In this document: one piece after another, positions 869 through 7,050 of the stretch
Layout of the letters: each line of letters opens with the position of its first letter
Numbering within the stretch: position 1 is the stretch's first letter
Made by a program: the position numbers and the translations under genes
Source: a virus
Lineage: Duplodnaviria > Heunggongvirae > Uroviricota > Caudoviricetes
Reading direction: 5' to 3' (one strand)
Virus record (IMG/VR): IMGVR_UViG_2563366903_000016
Length of the DNA: 8,112 bases
The notes under the pieces: model-generated
Databases searched by the model: none
Seen by the model: the letters and a program-made list of their open reading frames with translations, nothing else
Told to the model about the DNA's origin: nothing

Positions 869-957
869 GGTGTGGCCTCTTCGTTTGTGAATTTTGAAAA
901 CTCACCAACCAGAGGTGGAAAACTCAGGGTGGCGAGACGTACAGGGTTTCCACAACC

Positions 958-993
958 GGCAAACGAAGAAACCGGCCCGACCGAAGTCGGCCC
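958..993 (-). terminator. candidate rho-independent terminator (minus strand)
   Basis: GC-rich stem 974-981 / 986-993 (8 bp, one mismatch) with a 4-nt loop that reads UUCG on the minus-strand RNA, followed on that strand by a U-rich stretch GGUUUCUUCGUUUG (958-973). Confidence 0.3.
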
Positions 994-1047
994 TGTACGC
1001 CCCGCCATAATTCTGACGCGAAAAAGACGTGGCGATACAGTACGCAC

Positions 1048-1089
1048 AAAAAAACCGCTGGCGCGGCTGTGCGCTTCGTTTGTCAGCGG
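1048..1089 (-). terminator. rho-independent terminator (minus strand)
   Basis: Inverted repeat CCGCTG (1055-1060) / CAGCGG (1084-1089) with extra internal GCGC pairing, followed immediately on the minus strand by seven U (A7 on + at 1048-1054). Confidence 0.45.
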
Positions 1090-1165
1090 GGTGGAAATCC
1101 CGGCACCCGTTTTATGAGGTGCAGCGGAAATGTAACCCGACACGACGAGCGCTGGCAAGCGGTTT

Positions 1166-1193: not shown

Positions 1194-1254
1194 CGCGGCG
1201 CAAAAATGGAATGCGCCGAGGGATAGCGGCGTTTATTAACAATGGAGGTTGTTT

Positions 1255-1722
1255 ATGCCTGTTGCTATGGAGCAAGCAGACAAGAAGATTTTTTTTCATC
1301 TGTGGTACAGCTATTGGCTGGAAGAGATGGTTTTCATACTCAGCAATAAAGCCGCTGCCATGTTGCGCGCCGGGGCGCTGATTGCTGCGGTATTGTCCTT
1401 TCTTCTGGTTGGTTTTCCCGTCCTGATGAGCCTTTGGGGGCTGGCGTTTTTTGTTTTTTCCTGGTTTTGCAGCAAGTGTGAATTCGTCGCCGAACTGGCG
1501 TGCTGGCAGAAACAGAGCTACCTTCGTCTGATTACGCAAAGGGATTTCATGAGCACTGAACGCCTGATTGAGCGCATTCTGTATCTGGAAGAAACGAACA
1601 GCGCATCCATGAAGGCGTTTGTCAGGCCCGCAAAAAACAAAGCGAGCGCATCTGTTGGTCTGTCTGCCAGCGAGCATTTGCGTTACTCCGAAAGGTTAAT
1701 CTGCTGGTTGTGCGGCGTCTGA
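1255..1722 (+). CDS. hypothetical membrane protein (155 aa), plus-strand accessory gene
   Basis: ATG at 1255 with GGAGG 6 nt upstream (track start 1249 is an in-frame TTG). Enterobacterial-looking codon usage (CTG, GCG, GAA, CGC rich). Long hydrophobic segment GALIAAVLSFLLVGFPVLMSLWGLAFFVFSWF suggests 1-2 transmembrane helices, then an ~80-aa soluble C-terminal region. Own promoter; 3' end overlaps the convergent gene 1683-2045 by 40 bp. The minus-strand 370-aa ORF over this region looks compositionally non-protein-like. Confidence 0.55.
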   Translation: MPVAMEQADKKIFFHLWYSYWLEEMVFILSNKAAAMLRAGALIAAVLSFLLVGFPVLMSLWGLAFFVFSWFCSKCEFVAELACWQKQSYLRLITQRDFMSTERLIERILYLEETNSASMKAFVRPAKNKASASVGLSASEHLRYSERLICWLCGV

Positions 1723-2521: not shown

Positions 2522-3502
2522 TTACGTACTGGCGGTGATTAACATCGCGCTGTAAGTTGCATCTTCCGTTACAGGTCCGCAGTCCGGGCAGTAGCCACCG
2601 CCATGGCGACCGCAGGCGTCGCACTGTCTCAGGGTGGCGATAACCTCCGGTGCTGATTCCCGGGTTCTTGCGCCAACGCTTCGTGGTGCCAGGATGGTGT
2701 TCATCCGGTAACCCTGATAAATGCGTCTGGTTTCCGGTGTGTCGGAATTGGAGATGGTGATGCTGGTCATGCCGCCCGTTTCCTGTGAAAGGCGGTCAAG
2801 CGCTGCCCTCAGACGAACGTGCTCGTCTTCATCGAATGGTTTTCCGTAGGCGGTAAAATTGTCCCGGCCACTGAATTGCAGGTAAGGGGGATCGCAGTAC
2901 ACGCAAAGCGTGTTGCCCATGCCGAACAGGTGACTGGCAGAGTTCAGCGTATCCTTAAAATCTGCGTGGATAAGCAGCGTTCGGGTGCTGTTTGCCTTGT
3001 CTGCAAATGCGCGGATTTCACGCTCAGGGAAGTAGGGCTTGCGGTAGCAGCCGAAAGGCACGTTAAAATCGCCTTTTCCGTTCACGCGGAACAAACTGTT
3101 AAAGCTGTGTCGGTTCAGGTACAAAAACATGGCGGCCAGTCGCAGTTCACGGCGGTCGCTTATTCCCGTTCTGCTGTTCAGGAAGGCATGATTCTCTGCG
3201 TTAAAGGTTTCGCGAATGATGAGATAGTCACCCCTGTTGTTGTGGTTCAGGAACAGGGTTTTCGCCTCGTCGATCAGGCTGTCGGTGTTGTCCCTGGCTT
3301 GCCGGTAGAAATTAATCAGCGCACCATTGGAATCACCCAGGATGTAACGCTTGTAACTGGTGTTCATGAATACCGATGCGCCGCCCACGAACGGCTCAAC
3401 CAGACAGTCGGCTTCTGGCAGGTGCGCCTTCAGTGTGTTCATGATGCGGCTTTTTCCGCCCACCCATTTCAGTGGCGTACCGGATAACAGTTCTTTGCTC
3501 AT
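2522..3502 (-). CDS. dam: DNA adenine (N6) methyltransferase, Dam family, with C-terminal Cys4 zinc-ribbon-like extension
   Basis: Dam-family signature blocks: LKWVGGKS, LVEPFVGGASVF (SAM-binding FxGxG), FLYLNR, FNVPFGCYRKPYFPE, catalytic VYCDPPY, NFTAY. Extra C-terminal tail carries CDACGRHGGGYCPDCG (CxxC-x8-CxxC). AAAGAGG RBS 7 nt upstream of ATG 3502; start overlaps the stop of the upstream ORF (ATGA). Confidence 0.9.
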   Translation of the reverse strand: MSKELLSGTPLKWVGGKSRIMNTLKAHLPEADCLVEPFVGGASVFMNTSYKRYILGDSNGALINFYRQARDNTDSLIDEAKTLFLNHNNRGDYLIIRETFNAENHAFLNSRTGISDRRELRLAAMFLYLNRHSFNSLFRVNGKGDFNVPFGCYRKPYFPEREIRAFADKANSTRTLLIHADFKDTLNSASHLFGMGNTLCVYCDPPYLQFSGRDNFTAYGKPFDEDEHVRLRAALDRLSQETGGMTSITISNSDTPETRRIYQGYRMNTILAPRSVGARTRESAPEVIATLRQCDACGRHGGGYCPDCGPVTEDATYSAMLITAST

Positions 3503-3726
3503 AACGCGGCCTCTTTGTTATAGTTTTCGTGCGTTAATAAATCCCATGACGCCCCGTTGTTTTTGCTCAGCAATCGCCAGCGAAAACCGATTCTTATTAC
3601 CAGGTAGTCGTGGGGTTTTATGCGTGAAAAATTCCGCACGCCGTCGCGGAATAAACGCAGCGATGCGCGGGCTTTTCTTTCCACGTTCAGGGGGGGGCAG
3701 CAACACACATTCAGGATGGCGACCAT
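3499..3726 (-). CDS. hypothetical small protein (75 aa) containing a C8/G8 homopolymer, translationally coupled to dam
   Basis: ATG at 3726 with strong GAGGTGA RBS 6 nt upstream, 9 nt after the exonuclease stop. Stop TGA overlaps the dam ATG (3499-3502). Codons 10-13 read through the homopolymer (TGC CCC CCC CTG). A second long open frame (3518-3706) also crosses the tract. Confidence 0.5.
   Translation of the reverse strand: MVAILNVCCCPPLNVERKARASLRLFRDGVRNFSRIKPHDYLVIRIGFRWRLLSKNNGASWDLLTHENYNKEAAL
3690..3697. repeat. G8/C8 homopolymeric tract (candidate slipped-strand site)
   Basis: Eight consecutive G on the plus strand (3690-3697), inside the 5' part of CDS 3499-3726. Confidence 0.9.
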
Positions 3727-5144: not shown

Positions 5145-5480
5145 TCAGTGCTTGCTTCCCGGATATTGAAAACGCAGGCCGTTGATTAATCTGTCTGCCG
5201 TTCTTAAGGCTTCAAAAAATGTGAAATCCTGTCCGAAGTAATCATCCCCGCGAGTCAGGGTGAAATTAAATCTGCCAGTAACAGGGCTGCGAAAACTTTT
5301 GTGAATAACGATGCCAGTGTCGCCAATCGTCCAGGTGTGCTTGCCGGTTTGTTTTATCGGATGGCCGTCTGGTGTTGCGTGGATTTCAGTGGTTACGGTC
5401 GCACTATTTTTACGGAAGTGCTGGCGTGCAACGTGGCGTTCGGTGTTGTTATTGATGCGTGCATTTCGTTGTTGCTTCAT
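5145..5480 (-). CDS. hypothetical protein (111 aa)
   Basis: ATG at 5480, moderate SD (GAGTGAAGA); basic N-terminus then a predicted beta-rich region. No family recognised. Confidence 0.55.
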   Translation of the reverse strand: MKQQRNARINNNTERHVARQHFRKNSATVTTEIHATPDGHPIKQTGKHTWTIGDTGIVIHKSFRSPVTGRFNFTLTRGDDYFGQDFTFFEALRTADRLINGLRFQYPGSKH

Positions 5481-5505
5481 TCTTCACTCGGTCCTTATGC
5501 GATGA

Positions 5506-5700
5506 TTACAGTGATTCGTCTCTTGTCAGCCTAAAAATCACTTCAGCCATGACTTCGCTAATTACATCGATCCCCTGATCGGTAAGGGCTTCTTTCCAGG
5601 CCTTGCTTGCACGTGTTGGATCCATCCTGCCTGATTGCTGTTGTATGATGATGAAGCGTAAATCGCTGTATAAGTCTTTTGTTTGAGTGGAGTCAGTCAT
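5506..5700 (-). CDS. hypothetical small protein (64 aa; possibly shorter, from internal ATG at 5625)
   Basis: ATG at 5700 with weak AAGG SD. Its start codon overlaps the start codon of the plus-strand gene on the opposite strand (CATG at 5698-5701). The internal ATG at 5625 has an AGGCAGG SD-like sequence. Confidence 0.4.
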   Translation of the reverse strand: MTDSTQTKDLYSDLRFIIIQQQSGRMDPTRASKAWKEALTDQGIDVISEVMAEVIFRLTRDESL

Positions 5701-6136
5701 GTCAATACCTTCAAATCTTGATGTTTTTAATGAAACAGTTGGTAAAACTTTTGCGTTTCTTTATGAAACTTTTCCCCGCAAAGTAACTATTGATATTTGT
5801 GCCTTAACCGGTGTTTCAGAGCTGACTTTTGAAGAAGACCGATCCTCCAGGAGGCAACTAGTTGAAGCTCTTGAGCTTCGCCGTGACTCCATCGCATGGC
5901 TTGTTGATGCTGGTTATGTATCCGCTAAATCTTCTCCTCCGCATTACTTTTCTGATGCGGTTCTCACGGCCAAAGGTCTTGAATTACTTAAGCTTGATCC
6001 AGAGTCACTTAAACAATCATTTGGCGACAAGCTTGTTGATGCAGCCAAGAGTGGCTCAATGGACGCGATAAAAAGCACCGCATCATCCGCTCTTACTACT
6101 GGGTTATCCTTTGCTTTCAAAAGTCTTCTTGGTTGA
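5699..6136 (+). CDS. hypothetical protein (145 aa) on the opposite strand in AT-rich DNA, candidate moron/accessory gene
   Basis: ATG at 5699 with GGAG 6 nt upstream (track start 5687 is an in-frame GTG). Coding region is visibly AT-richer than its flanks (by eye, not computed). Antisense to the early operon and convergent with cox. Candidate -10 TATAAG at 5669-5674; hairpin at 6179-6204 downstream. No family recognised. Confidence 0.55.
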   Translation: MSIPSNLDVFNETVGKTFAFLYETFPRKVTIDICALTGVSELTFEEDRSSRRQLVEALELRRDSIAWLVDAGYVSAKSSPPHYFSDAVLTAKGLELLKLDPESLKQSFGDKLVDAAKSGSMDAIKSTASSALTTGLSFAFKSLLG

Positions 6137-6178
6137 TTGTTGCGCCCCCGCATAACACCAACGATTAGATTATTTACG

Positions 6179-6204
6179 GCGAAATCTCCTGTTGTGGATT
6201 TCGC
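6179..6204. terminator. stem-loop between convergent genes (candidate terminator for the plus-strand gene)
   Basis: Perfect 8-bp inverted repeat GCGAAATC (6179-6186) / GATTTCGC (6197-6204) with a 10-nt loop. On the plus strand it is followed by a T-rich stretch (TGTGTGTTTGATATT, then T6 at 6227-6232); on the minus strand the following sequence is not U-rich. Confidence 0.3.
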
Positions 6205-6217
6205 TGTGTGTTTGATA

Positions 6218-6643
6218 TTAAGCTGCTTTTTTACTGATACGTTTATTCCGTGAACCAGCTGCTGGCTTAAATAAAAAAAGTCGGTTTTCCCATTCGTGCC
6301 ATTCTTGCGGTGCGTTTTCAGTGAGTCGATCGCAGGCTTCATCCCATGCTTTCCGGTTGATGTAAAGTTCGGCGTTTCCGCCAGGCTTGAGAGGGTCCGC
6401 CATGTACACAGCGGGTAATTTCCCTGCTTTTGCCATGCTCACGATGGCGTCAACGGTCTTGCCGATATACATCGCAAACCCTTCTTTTGACAGGAGATGA
6501 GAAGGGTTTTGTGAAAGCCTGATTTCTTGGCGTTCAGGGGCTTTGCGCCCGGTCTTTTGGTGTGCGGTTTCTGGCGCATCTGTCAACTGATCGCACTGTG
6601 TTTCGGCAGGCGATTCAGGCGCGTTTTGAGTGACTTCTTGCAT
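6218..6643 (-). CDS. cox: Cox-like excisionase/transcriptional regulator with an N-terminal acidic extension
   Basis: C-terminal ~85 aa (EGFAMYIGKTVDAIVSMAKAGKLPAVYMADP ... AELYINRKAWDE) match my recollection of P2 Cox (EFAKLIGKSTGAVRRMIDKGKLPVIDMTDP ... AGEYWVYLPAWN). ATG at 6643 has GGAGGA 5 nt upstream; an internal ATG at 6472 also has an SD (GAAGGG) but would remove conserved residues. Divergent from the repressor gene. Confidence 0.65.
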   Translation of the reverse strand: MQEVTQNAPESPAETQCDQLTDAPETAHQKTGRKAPERQEIRLSQNPSHLLSKEGFAMYIGKTVDAIVSMAKAGKLPAVYMADPLKPGGNAELYINRKAWDEACDRLTENAPQEWHEWENRLFLFKPAAGSRNKRISKKAA

Positions 6644-6750
6644 CTGGTATCCTCCGTTATTGGTGCTATTTCTATTTAGCACCAGTTAGAGCCGCCTAGA
6701 TTGTCTCTAGGTGTGTTTGTTGATGTATAAACTAAGAGAGTTAACTTACT
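6644..6750. promoter_or_regulatory. divergent cox/C promoter-operator (switch) region
   Basis: 107-bp intergenic region between divergent cox and C. Contains palindrome TGGTGCTA-n8-TAGCACCA (6661-6684) and palindrome CTAGA-n5-TCTAG (6696-6710). Candidate -10 TATAAA (6726-6731) for the repressor transcript. Exact promoters were not resolved. Confidence 0.5.
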
Positions 6751-7050
6751 ATGTCAACTAACGTAGGTGAAAAAATTAGAATCATGCGTAAGTCTGAAAT
6801 GCTTACACAAGAAAAAATGGCTGAAATTACAGGGCTCACGGTAGCGGCCCTGCGTCAATATGAACAGGGGAGAAATGAGCCAAATCTTGAATCCACAAAA
6901 AAGCTGCTCAAGTCTCCCGTCTTCCGTAAATACCGTGACTGGTTTTTGTTCGATGAGGTCGAACCAAAGGCCGGGCAGGTGGTACCGGCTCTCGCACACA
7001 TTGGGCGAAGCGAATCGGAATCACCCCACTCCGGCAAGAAGACTGGTTAA
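6751..7050 (+). CDS. C: P2 C-type immunity repressor (99 aa)
   Basis: Length and sequence match my recollection of P2 C: EKIRIMRKSE, ITGLTVAALRQYEQGR (HTH region), and C-terminal PALAHIGRSESESPHSGKKTG against P2 PALAHFGQNETTSPHSGQKTG. Sits immediately upstream of int on the same strand, as in P2. Confidence 0.85.
   Translation: MSTNVGEKIRIMRKSEMLTQEKMAEITGLTVAALRQYEQGRNEPNLESTKKLLKSPVFRKYRDWFLFDEVEPKAGQVVPALAHIGRSESESPHSGKKTG

What the first reader, a model, noticed from the sequence alone, without database searches (positions are those of the whole stretch)
5640..6217. AT-rich opposite-strand gene set between cox and the early operon
In P2/186-type phages the early promoter transcribes cox and the downstream early genes as one leftward unit. 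Here a 145-aa ORF on the opposite strand (5699-6136) sits between cox and the first early gene, with its own SD, a candidate promoter and a downstream stem-loop. Its DNA is visibly AT-richer than both flanks, which suggests separate acquisition. Its position means it would be expressed in the lysogen and run over antisense by early transcription after induction. That is the regulatory logic of lysogenic-conversion genes such as superinfection exclusion or anti-phage defence. The protein matched nothing I know.
Basis: partly seen in the sequence, partly recalled or inferred. Interest (0 to 1): 0.75.

Follow-up and report, generated by a model that had tools for sequence, protein, structure and literature searches.

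The report
Head-to-head two-gene prophage accessory cassette
The opposite-strand gene is real, but it is one half of a widespread, uncharacterised two-gene phage cassette whose start codons overlap head-to-head, an arrangement that probably lets the prophage make one protein while dormant and its partner only when the phage grows.

Summary
The 145-aa ORF (5699-6136, +) exists as described. It has an SD (GGAG 5689-5692), a downstream hairpin (6175-6208) and low GC (0.425; GC3 0.295). It lies antisense in the early operon of a P2-like E. coli prophage and is present or absent among close relatives. No convincing promoter was found.

The two start codons share one CATG. In 119 homologous loci, the opposite-strand frame at that offset stays open for a median of 70 codons, against 5 and 9 in the control frames. 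About half of 67 lineages carry a homologous small partner. Each gene's SD lies inside the other's first codons, and both evolve under purifying selection (dN/dS about 0.1).

The large protein is an acidic winged-helix domain with a hypervariable surface and a Gly-rich tail (phrog_2266; 1,483 clusters; no Pfam, NCBIfam or PADLOC hit). The small one is a three-helix bundle.

The cassette moves between phage hotspots, with the large gene antisense to the host operon and the small gene co-oriented with it. The best reading is a lysogen-expressed accessory or defence protein plus a lytic-phase antagonist. This resembles Tab/anti-Tab of phage JBD26 in logic, but the proteins are not homologous. Function is untested.

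The parts
5699..6136 (+). Large cassette gene, 145 aa (WP_016237679.1): acidic winged-helix domain (residues 1-100) plus a Gly/Ala/Ser-rich C-terminal tail (101-145)
5506..5700 (-). Small partner gene, 64 aa (WP_016237836.1): three-helix bundle, co-oriented with the early operon
   Evidence: frame-specific open reading frame in 75/119 loci against 5-6/119 in control frames; dN/dS 0.077; hhalign 97.8% to Pseudomonas-type partners, which fall in phrog_25421; AF2 pLDDT 89
5698..5701 (.). Shared CATG: ATG of the large gene (5699-5701) and ATG of the small gene (complement of 5698-5700) overlap by 2 nt
   Evidence: sequence; CATG context in 73/119 loci; 49 distinct paired CATG loci
5689..5692 (+). 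SD of the large gene (GGAG, 6-nt spacer), located inside codons 3-4 of the small gene
   Evidence: (SD core upstream of the large ATG in 36/49 loci, peak at -13)
5708..5712 (-). SD of the small gene (GAAGG on the - strand, 7-nt spacer), encoded by the Pro4-Ser5 codons of the large gene
   Evidence: (SD core upstream of the small ATG in 47/49 loci, peak at -10; it coincides with the conserved Ser-Asn codons)
6175..6208 (+). Terminator-like hairpin after the large gene, strand-biased towards +, on the cassette side of the recombination boundary
   Evidence: (I3); homology with cassette-free relatives starts at 6215; L004 also has a + strand hairpin after its copy
5483..5512 (+). Weak candidate promoter for the large gene (TTCACT-18-TACAGT, 8/12 matches), just beyond the small gene's stop codon. 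Unverified
   Evidence: similar position in L004 and L006; one search found nothing at stricter criteria
6218..6643 (-). Context: Cox-family gene, the upstream gene of the early operon, convergent with the large gene
5145..5480 (-). Context: DUF4761 early gene, the next operon gene after the small partner

Best explanation
Window 5506-6215 is a mobile two-gene phage accessory cassette (a 'moron') inserted antisense into the early operon of a P2-like prophage. It has three parts: (i) a large gene on the strand opposite to the host operon; (ii) a small gene co-oriented with the operon; (iii) a terminator-like hairpin after the large gene. The two genes are head-to-head, with start codons sharing one CATG and each SD lying inside the other's first codons. 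Their mRNAs are therefore necessarily complementary across both ribosome-binding sites.

Proposed mechanism:
1. In the lysogen the early promoter is shut by C, and the large gene is transcribed from its own, still unidentified, promoter. Its product is an acidic winged-helix protein with a hypervariable surface and a Gly-rich tail, and it acts as an accessory or exclusion factor.
2. On induction, early-operon transcription runs through the large gene in antisense. This should silence it by transcriptional interference and RNA pairing over its RBS.
3. The same transcript carries the small gene, whose three-helix product antagonises the large protein that is already present, so the phage does not harm itself.

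Shown: the cassette, its conserved geometry, coding status, mobility, foreign composition and orientation rule. Inferred: the timing of expression, antagonism between the two proteins, and a defence or exclusion function.

Rough confidence by layer: real two-gene cassette 0.9; lysogeny/lytic alternation 0.6; defence plus counter-defence function 0.35.
For: - Pairing and geometry. A divergent ORF whose ATG lies at offset +1 from the large gene's ATG was first seen in 16/33 loci, from E. coli phages to Pseudomonas and Bilophila. In 119 loci the opposite-strand frame at that offset is open for a median of 70 codons and reaches at least 55 codons in 75/119, against 6/119 and 5/119 for the other two frames. 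After dereplication, about 34 of 67 lineages are paired.
- Homology of partners. Enteric and Pseudomonas-type small proteins align with hhalign probability 97.8%, E = 1.3e-12. The Pseudomonas-type partners fall in phrog_25421.
- Both genes are translated. An SD core precedes the small gene in 47/49 loci and the large gene in 36/49. Median dN/dS is 0.077 and 0.112.
- Both genes are foreign. GC is 8.0 and 6.1 points below the flanks in 43/45 loci each, p = 1e-12 and 3e-10.
- Mobility. The cassette occurs between cox and the early genes (window, Serratia L040), next to C/int (Yersinia L037; L121), near the gpA/portal end (Midge L005, ST147-VIM1phi7.1 L006), and between tail tube and chaperone genes (Pseudomonas L036, L123). 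These correspond to reported P2 hotspots.
- Orientation rule. The gene after the large gene's stop codon converges on it in 52/55 paired loci, often with 0-3 nt between stop codons. The gene beyond the small partner is co-oriented with it in 43/56. Operon transcription must therefore cross the large gene to reach the small gene and the essential genes downstream.
- In the window, no - strand terminator-like site lies between cox and DUF4761, and the hairpin is biased towards the + strand.
- Asymmetric decay. 16 complete E. coli genomes keep the small gene plus a 13-codon stub of the large gene, and 3 keep the intact pair.
- Precedent. In Tab/anti-Tab of JBD26, an opposite-strand, constitutively expressed defence gene sits inside the late operon, the counter-defence gene is co-transcribed with the operon, and the two proteins bind each other (PMC10884400).
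- One solo homolog sits directly after an OLD-TOPRIM ATPase and a UvrD helicase, a Gabija-like pair.
- 6 of 8 randomly chosen unknown-function loci from P4 hotspots gave phage protection.
Against: - No promoter for the large gene could be identified, in the window or as a positionally conserved element. Expression in the lysogen is assumed, not shown.
- There is no homology to any known defence protein (PADLOC), to Tab or anti-Tab, or to any Pfam or NCBIfam family.
- About half of the lineages carry the large gene without the partner. These include antisense-embedded copies next to gpW-like genes and copies co-oriented inside tail operons. The small protein is therefore not generally required, and the large protein is not always expressed only in lysogeny.
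- L116 and L112 have 97%-identical small proteins but only 65%-identical large proteins. This argues against tight pairwise specificity, or it reflects recombination at the junction.
- The Midge-type partner is not detectably homologous to the others.
- Physical interaction between the two proteins could not be modelled with the tools available.
Confidence: 0.5

Rival explanations
1. A portable regulatory switch: the large protein is a winged-helix repressor and the small protein its Cox/Apl-like or antirepressor-like antagonist. The two are transcribed from face-to-face promoters, as in the P2 Pe/Pc and 186 pR/pL switches. In this window it would be a second or relict immunity-type module, giving heteroimmunity or regulating some target.
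Against: The winged-helix domain is acidic across the family (pI 4.3-5.9), and no basic residue is conserved in the HTH or recognition region. The only conserved basic residues are K92, K98, K117 and K125. There is no Pfam HTH, MarR or Cox hit. The window already has a complete C/Cox switch next door. Many copies sit in tail or head operons, far from any immunity region. No repeated operator-like sequences were found in the cassette beyond chance-level short repeats.
Confidence: 0.2
2. One reading: a single-gene lysogenic-conversion moron. The 145-aa protein acts alone, and the 64-aa gene is simply an early phage gene that happens to abut it.
For: About half of the family's lineages have the large gene without the small partner. 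The 64-aa gene persists alone in 16 E. coli genomes within the early operon.
Against: The exact 2-nt start-codon overlap and a homologous partner recur across Enterobacterales and Pseudomonas in unrelated phage positions. The small gene shares the cassette's foreign GC. The 'orphan' copies retain a 13-codon stub of the large gene, which shows deletion from an ancestral pair.
Confidence: 0.1
3. An addiction or toxin-antitoxin-like module: the large protein is a toxin that acts through its Gly-zipper-like tail on the membrane, and the small protein is its antidote. Mutual antisense takes the place of operon coupling.
For: The two genes are tightly linked and cannot easily be separated. Orphan small genes (orphan 'antitoxins') are more common than intact pairs in E. 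coli. The C-terminal tail is rich in Gly/Ala/Ser with small-xxx-small spacing. Mutual 5' antisense recalls type I TA pairs with divergent overlapping transcripts (established knowledge of systems such as shoB-ohsC and zor-orz).
Against: Solo large genes are common and stable. Tail hydrophobicity is below the transmembrane range (maximum Kyte-Doolittle 19-residue window 0.85-1.4), and AF2 confidence for the tail is low. There is no similarity to known TA families. In the proposed expression pattern, the antidote would be absent during lysogeny, exactly when the 'toxin' is made.
Confidence: 0.1
4. A lytic-cycle accessory protein, for example a virion-assembly or tail-related factor, rather than a lysogeny-expressed gene. 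Its antisense placement in this window would be incidental.
For: Some solo homologs are co-oriented and translationally coupled inside tail operons, between gpU and tail-X (L011, L058, L063). Others lie beside terminase or lysis genes. The paired Pseudomonas copies sit between the tail tube and chaperone genes.
Against: In paired loci the large gene is almost always antisense to the structural or early operon (52/55). It therefore cannot be expressed from that operon. Presence/absence polymorphism among near-identical phages shows it is dispensable.
Confidence: 0.08

Closest known systems
Tab / anti-Tab of Pseudomonas phage JBD26 (Patel et al. 2024, PMC10884400)
   Same: An accessory two-gene unit embedded in a phage operon. 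One gene lies on the opposite strand and, in JBD26, is shown to have its own promoter and to be constitutive in the lysogen. The other gene is co-oriented and co-transcribed with the operon, and is made only in the lytic cycle to neutralise the first. Both proteins are small and unannotated. The Pseudomonas members of the present family likewise sit inside the morphogenesis operon.
   Different: There is no sequence relationship (hhalign probabilities 0.1-1.4%). Tab and anti-Tab are both about 83 aa, and their genes are convergent with a 47-nt 3' overlap between terS and terL. Here the proteins are 145 and 64 aa and the genes are divergent with a 2-nt 5' overlap. Tab homologs are restricted to JBD26 relatives, whereas this family has 1,483 clusters across Proteobacteria. 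No phenotype, target or interaction is known here.
P2 Pe/Pc (C-Cox) and 186 pR/pL (CI-Apl) developmental switches
   Same: Divergent genes whose transcripts overlap at their 5' ends, so that transcription in one direction interferes with the other. One direction serves lysogeny and the other lytic growth. One family member occupies the cox | C -> int position.
   Different: The proteins are unrelated to HTH_3-type C or to Phage_Cox. The overlap here is at the start codons themselves. The cassette is an accessory element that moves between hotspots, and in this window it sits beside a complete C/Cox switch.
Classical P2 morons and exclusion genes (old, tin, fun/Z) and defence cargo of P2 hotspots
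   Same: AT-rich, variably present genes at hotspots of P2-like phages. The slot lies in the integrase-to-primase interval reported to hold 8% of P2 defence systems, and other family members sit in the gpA-portal hotspot and within the late genes.
   Different: There is no homology to any PADLOC model. It is a two-gene unit with an overlapping head-to-head architecture, which is not described for old, tin or fun.
MarR/PadR/TubR-type winged-helix proteins
   Different: No sequence-family match. The surface is acidic. The canonical recognition region is hypervariable and lacks conserved basic residues. There is an extra Gly-rich C-terminal tail.

Membership tests
phrog_2266 (phage protein family, unknown function) | Full-length match to the family HMM | tested here: met
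   E = 1.4e-31, residues 5-140 against profile positions 3-143 of 144
Small-partner family (phrog_25421-type) | Sequence homology of the window's 64-aa protein to partners found next to other family members | tested here: met
   A direct hmmscan of the window protein against PHROGs gave no hit. Profile-profile comparison of enteric against Pseudomonas-type partners gives probability 97.8%, E = 1.3e-12 over 46 columns, and the latter hit phrog_25421. The Midge-type partner (phrog_2454) is not detectably related.
Moron (Hendrix-type independent accessory unit in a phage operon) | Present or absent between otherwise collinear relatives | tested here: met
   L002 lacks it while its C/cox region is 98.8% identical, and the boundary is at 6215
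Moron (Hendrix-type independent accessory unit in a phage operon) | Composition distinct from the flanking phage genes | tested here: met
   GC3 0.295 against 0.42-0.50. Across the family, 8 points below the flanks in 43/45 loci.
Moron (Hendrix-type independent accessory unit in a phage operon) | Own promoter and own terminator | tested here: inconclusive
   A terminator-like hairpin is present. No convincing promoter was found.
Tab / anti-Tab defence and counter-defence system | Sequence homology to Tab (gp31) or anti-Tab (gp30) | tested here: not met
   hhalign probabilities 0.14%, 1.4%, 0.10% and 0.14%
Tab / anti-Tab defence and counter-defence system | Defence gene antisense within a phage operon, counter-defence gene co-oriented with the operon | tested here: met
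   Window layout. 52/55 paired loci are convergent with the upstream operon gene.
Tab / anti-Tab defence and counter-defence system | [quoted passage not shown] | tested here: not met
   Here the genes are divergent and lie between cox and the early genes. JBD26 layout.
Tab / anti-Tab defence and counter-defence system | Blocks tail assembly via the tape-measure protein; the counter-defence protein binds the defence protein | not testable with these tools
   Needs phage assays and interaction assays
MarR-type or other HTH transcription regulators | Winged-helix fold | tested here: met
MarR-type or other HTH transcription regulators | Sequence-family match and a conserved basic recognition helix or wing | tested here: not met
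   No Pfam or NCBIfam hit. Domain pI 4.3-5.9. Residues 31-60 are hypervariable, with no conserved K/R.
Known anti-phage defence systems (PADLOC-DB v2) | Match to any defence-protein model | tested here: not met
   0 families at E <= 1 for both proteins
Type II toxin-antitoxin modules | Co-directional bicistronic operon, and a toxin not maintained without its antitoxin | tested here: not met
   The genes are divergent. About 32 of 67 lineages carry the large gene alone.
T7 gp5.5/5.7-like (annotation in the phage Midge record) | Detectable sequence or structural similarity | tested here: not met
   No such hit in the PDB profile or sequence searches or in the fold searches. The Midge note reports only 91% HHpred probability.

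The most novel reading that the evidence does not exclude
The cassette is a previously unrecognised, widely distributed class of prophage defence with built-in counter-defence. Its head-to-head CATG overlap works as a hard-wired two-state toggle: defence protein during lysogeny, antagonist during the phage's own lytic cycle, enforced by transcriptional interference and by mutual antisense masking of both ribosome-binding sites. The hypervariable winged-helix surface would be the recognition module under arms-race selection. The 'orphan' small genes kept by other P2-like phages would be anti-defence genes that let those phages infect lysogens carrying the large gene.
Probability: 0.2. Interest if true: 0.8.

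Novelty: new variant of a known kind. Interest (0 to 1): 0.6.

Why it matters
If the inferred logic holds, there are three consequences.

1. It would extend the recently discovered 'defence plus self-immunity' principle from one narrow Pseudomonas phage group (Tab/anti-Tab) to a family with about 1,500 sequence clusters across Proteobacteria, including common E. coli, Salmonella, Klebsiella and Yersinia prophages.

2. It would provide a compact natural example of two protein-coding genes whose expression is made mutually exclusive by sharing a start-codon tetranucleotide and by embedding each RBS in the other's coding sequence. That is of interest for gene-regulation theory and synthetic biology.

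3. It would give a simple genomic signature for finding more such pairs among unannotated phage ORFs: an antisense-embedded gene with a head-to-head partner that is co-oriented with the host operon.

Even if the defence reading fails, the finding corrects the annotation of two 'hypothetical proteins' into one conserved functional unit.

Tried and rejected
- **Family searches.** Pfam, NCBIfam and PADLOC gave nothing for either protein.
- **T7 gp5.5-like idea** (from the Midge record). No support in PDB sequence, profile or fold searches.
- **Tab or anti-Tab homology.** Rejected by hhalign.
- **Promoters.** The consensus scan found no + strand site in 5300-6900. The two - strand sites (6198-6169 and 5529-5502) are within chance expectation. 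A positional scan over 46 loci found no conserved sigma-70 element, only a weak recurring candidate beyond the small gene's stop codon in enteric loci.
- **Intramolecular SD sequestration.** The GGAG...CATG...CTCC palindrome offers only about 4 bp across a loop of about 19 nt, judged by inspecting the sequences. I considered this negligible and did not pursue it.
- **Operators.** Only short repeats were found, explicable by repeated peptide motifs or by chance.
- **Domain fusions of the small partner.** All 85 relatives are standalone proteins of 46-88 aa. The partial match to the C-terminus of 242-aa phrog_3787 could not be followed further.
- **Fold of the small partner.** No significant neighbour, all E > 2.
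- **AlphaFold DB Foldseek library.** Unavailable.
- **First dN/dS script.** Timed out. It was redone on equal-length pairs only, so n is small.
- **Rfam.** No RNA family in the cassette.
- **Literature.** Searches by accession number or PHROG id found nothing. A search for 'overlapping start codons' found nothing.
- **Multimer modelling** of the pair was not possible with the tools.
Full report
**1. What the window is**

The 8.1-kb window is identical, where tested, to the chromosome of E. coli DETEC-S792 (NZ_CP116067.1). It covers the left arm of a P2-like prophage integrated beside chpSB/ppa. From right to left it contains:
- an integrase (+);
- a 99-aa HTH_3 C-type repressor (6751-7050, +);
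- a Cox-family gene (6218-6643, -; Pfam Phage_Cox, E = 1.3e-27);
- the finding;
- leftward early genes: DUF4761, DUF4754, a 3'-5' exonuclease, a Dam methylase and others.

**2. Checking the observation**

The ORF exists. RefSeq annotates 5699-6136 (+) as WP_016237679.1, and the family alignment has an invariant Met at that ATG.
- SD: GGAG lies at 5689-5692, 6 nt upstream of the ATG.
- Hairpin: a 13-bp hairpin at 6175-6208 folds better than shuffles on the + strand (-28.1 kcal/mol, z = -3.4) and is followed by a partly U-rich tract. On the - strand it is weaker and has no U-run.
- Composition: GC is 0.425, against 0.500 for cox and 0.479 for DUF4761. The contrast is modest at whole-gene level because the whole right half of the window is AT-rich (11.7th percentile there). 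It is clear at third codon positions: 0.295 against 0.42-0.50.
No + strand promoter-like site passes the scan in 5300-6900.

**3. Presence or absence**

Prophages whose C/cox region is 98.8% identical (for example L002) lack the segment. Homology breaks at window 6215, 3 nt before the cox stop codon and just beyond the hairpin. This supports separate acquisition. The slot lies in the integrase-to-primase interval, which a 2026 preprint reports to hold 8% of P2 defence systems. The main hotspot is gpA-portal, and others lie within the late genes.

**4. The unit has two genes**

The adjacent 64-aa leftward ORF (5506-5700) starts with the complement of CAT at 5698-5700. Its ATG and the ATG of the 145-aa gene therefore share one CATG.

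The same arrangement appeared in:
- a 70-78%-identical E. coli prophage (L004);
- phage Midge and Klebsiella phage ST147-VIM1phi7.1, where the large protein is only 26-28% identical;
- prophages of Pectobacterium, Providencia, Pseudomonas and a Bilophila MAG.

Over 119 homologous genes from genome, viral and metagenome contigs:
- The opposite-strand frame anchored at offset +1 is open for a median of 70 codons, and for at least 55 codons in 75 loci.
- The two control frames have medians of 5 and 9 codons and reach 55 codons in only 6 and 5 loci.
- A few loci use a nearby offset instead.
- After dereplication at 80% identity, about 34 of 67 lineages are paired and about 32 are solo.

The small proteins are homologous between Enterobacterales and Pseudomonas (hhalign 97.8%, E = 1.3e-12). 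The Pseudomonas-type partners belong to phrog_25421. The Midge-type partner (phrog_2454) is not detectably related.

**5. Both genes are real and belong together**

- Median dN/dS is 0.077 for the small gene (n = 11 pairs) and 0.112 for the large gene (n = 19).
- In 49 distinct CATG loci, an SD core precedes the small gene in 47 (peak at -10) and the large gene in 36 (peak at -13).
- The small gene's SD is encoded by the conserved Ser-Asn codons of the large protein. The large gene's SD lies in codons 3-5 of the small one. The consensus is GGAG-N9-CATG-N6-CTCC. In the window this is GGAG 5689-5692 and GAAGG on the - strand at 5712-5708.
- Any two transcripts that translate these genes must therefore be complementary across both ribosome-binding sites.
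- Both genes are AT-richer than their flanks across the family: 8.0 and 6.1 GC points lower, each in 43/45 loci, p = 1e-12 and 3e-10. The small gene therefore travels with the cassette and is not a core early gene.

**6. Mobility and the orientation rule**

The cassette occupies different sites in different phages:

| Site | Loci |
|---|---|
| Downstream of cox | window; Serratia L040 |
| Beside C/int | Yersinia L037; L121, where the order is small \| large -> int |
| gpA/portal end | Midge L005; ST147-VIM1phi7.1 L006 |
| Between tail tube and tail chaperone genes | Pseudomonas prophages L036, L123 |

In paired loci, the gene after the large gene's stop codon converges on it in 52/55 cases, often with 0-3 nt between the two stop codons. 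The gene beyond the small partner is co-oriented with the partner in 43/56 cases. Host-operon transcription must therefore pass antisense through the large gene to reach the small gene and the essential genes downstream. In the window, no - strand terminator-like site intervenes.

**7. Decay is asymmetric**

Of 5,426 complete E. coli genomes, 3 carry an intact pair. Another 16 carry the small gene plus the first 13 codons of the large gene, with a breakpoint at window 5733-5736. This shows loss of the large gene from an ancestral pair.

**8. The proteins**

*The large protein.*
- It is a full-length member of phrog_2266 (E = 1.4e-31).
- An exhaustive profile search finds 1,483 clusters at 50% identity, almost all standalone proteins of 135-155 aa. 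All are named 'hypothetical', and the exact window protein occurs on 473 contigs.
- AlphaFold predicts a confident winged-helix domain (residues 1-100, pLDDT about 90) and a low-confidence helical tail.
- The domain is acidic throughout the family (pI 4.3-5.9).
- The canonical recognition region (residues 31-60) is the most variable part, at about 3 bits, and has no conserved basic residue. Residues 1-30 and 91-100 are the most conserved.
- The tail is rich in Gly/Ala/Ser and is below transmembrane hydrophobicity.

This profile fits a protein-recognition module with a diversifying surface better than a conserved DNA-binding repressor, although DNA binding is not excluded.

*The small protein.*
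- It is a confidently predicted three-helix bundle (pLDDT 89) with no significant structural neighbour.
- It has no Pfam match and no informative fusions.

**9. Mechanistic reading**

The geometry implies two mutually exclusive expression states.
- With the host operon silent (lysogeny), the large gene can be expressed from its own promoter.
- With the operon active (lytic growth), antisense transcription and RNA pairing over its RBS should silence the large gene, while the small gene is delivered on the operon transcript.

The closest experimentally characterised system with this logic is Tab/anti-Tab of Pseudomonas phage JBD26. There, tab is on the opposite strand inside the late operon, has its own promoter and is constitutive in the lysogen. 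It blocks tail assembly of invading phages. atab is co-transcribed with the late operon, binds Tab and is indispensable when tab is present (PMC10884400).

That system is analogous, not homologous. hhalign probabilities are at most 1.4%. Its genes are convergent, with a 47-nt 3' overlap between terS and terL.

I therefore propose, as inference, a lysogen-expressed accessory or defence protein with a lytic-phase antagonist.

Supporting hints:
- The cassette lives in hotspots.
- One solo homolog directly follows a Gabija-like OLD-TOPRIM/UvrD pair.
- Unknown genes in P4 hotspots have a high reported hit rate in phage-protection tests.

Counter-evidence:
- No promoter was identified.
- About half of the lineages are solo, including antisense copies beside gpW-like genes and co-oriented copies inside tail operons.
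- L116 and L112 combine nearly identical small proteins with 65%-identical large proteins.

**10. Rivals**

- A portable repressor/antagonist switch is the strongest alternative. It is supported by the fold, the overlapping-transcript layout that recalls 186 pR/pL, and the L121 and L037 positions. The acidic, non-conserved HTH surface and the many copies in structural operons argue against it.
- A toxin-antitoxin reading conflicts with the abundance of solo large genes and with the predicted timing.
- The single-gene reading conflicts with the conserved pairing.
- A purely lytic or structural role conflicts with the antisense orientation.

**11. Verdict**

I found no description of it in the literature searched.

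It is best classed as a new variant of a known kind, namely a prophage moron with defence and self-immunity logic. It is moderately to highly interesting because the architecture is unusual, widespread and directly testable.

Noticed in passing
window 925-1012 (-) and 1048-1122 (-): Rfam gathering-level hits to C4 antisense RNA (RF01695, 82 bits) and isrK (RF01394, 64 bits). They lie where ORF listing shows a spurious 370-aa ORF (565-1677) and RefSeq annotates only small hypothetical genes. This is a P1/P7-type antisense immunity RNA inside a P2-like prophage early region.
   Followed up: no
window 1249-1722 (+): A second opposite-strand ORF (157 aa, hydrophobic central segment) is embedded in the leftward early region. 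It is 29% identical (E = 1e-17) to the + strand 155-aa gene that sits between cox and the cassette in Yersinia prophage L037 (5781-6248). It may be another recurring antisense-embedded moron. The RefSeq CDS coordinates transferred from L001 did not fit the window's reading frame, so the window may differ from that record by an indel here.
   Followed up: partly
L003 3302-3340 (E. coli EC2) and 15 other complete E. coli genomes: Orphan small-partner genes retain the first 13 codons of the large gene (MSTPSNLDVFNET) before a recombination breakpoint into a different immunity region. Orphans outnumber intact pairs 16 to 3.
   Followed up: yes
L121 46-1779 and L122: In an uncultured P2-like element the pair sits as small(-) | large(+) -> integrase(+), with a 4-nt overlap between the large gene and int. 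This is the position of cox | C -> int in P2.
   Followed up: partly
L124 2058-6456: A solo family member directly follows an OLD-like TOPRIM ATPase (652 aa) and a UvrD helicase (626 aa), a Gabija-like pair. An unannotated 1,100-aa protein follows, and all are on one strand.
   Followed up: no
L116 vs L112 (Pseudomonas viral contigs): The small partners are 97% identical, but the large proteins are only 65% identical, with differences spread over residues 30-60 and the tail. This suggests recombination at the CATG junction or rapid diversification of the large gene.
   Followed up: partly
window 6218-6682 (-): The Cox-family protein is unusually long: 141 aa as annotated, 154 aa from the upstream GTG. 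The Phage_Cox domain covers only residues 53-133 of the 154-aa ORF. It matches phrog_1831 'transcriptional regulator' (E = 2.8e-50) better than the Cox excisionase PHROG.
   Followed up: no
Pseudomonas-type small partners (e.g. L019, L035, L068, L054): Many small partners end in a Cys-rich motif (e.g. PRCRCCRSC, QCNCCR) that is absent from the enteric versions. It could be a metal-binding or lipidation-type tail.
   Followed up: no
window 3499-3726 (-): A 75-aa early gene identical to WP_000225756.1 is annotated 'ParE family toxin-like protein' in another genome, but 'hypothetical' in this one.
   Followed up: no
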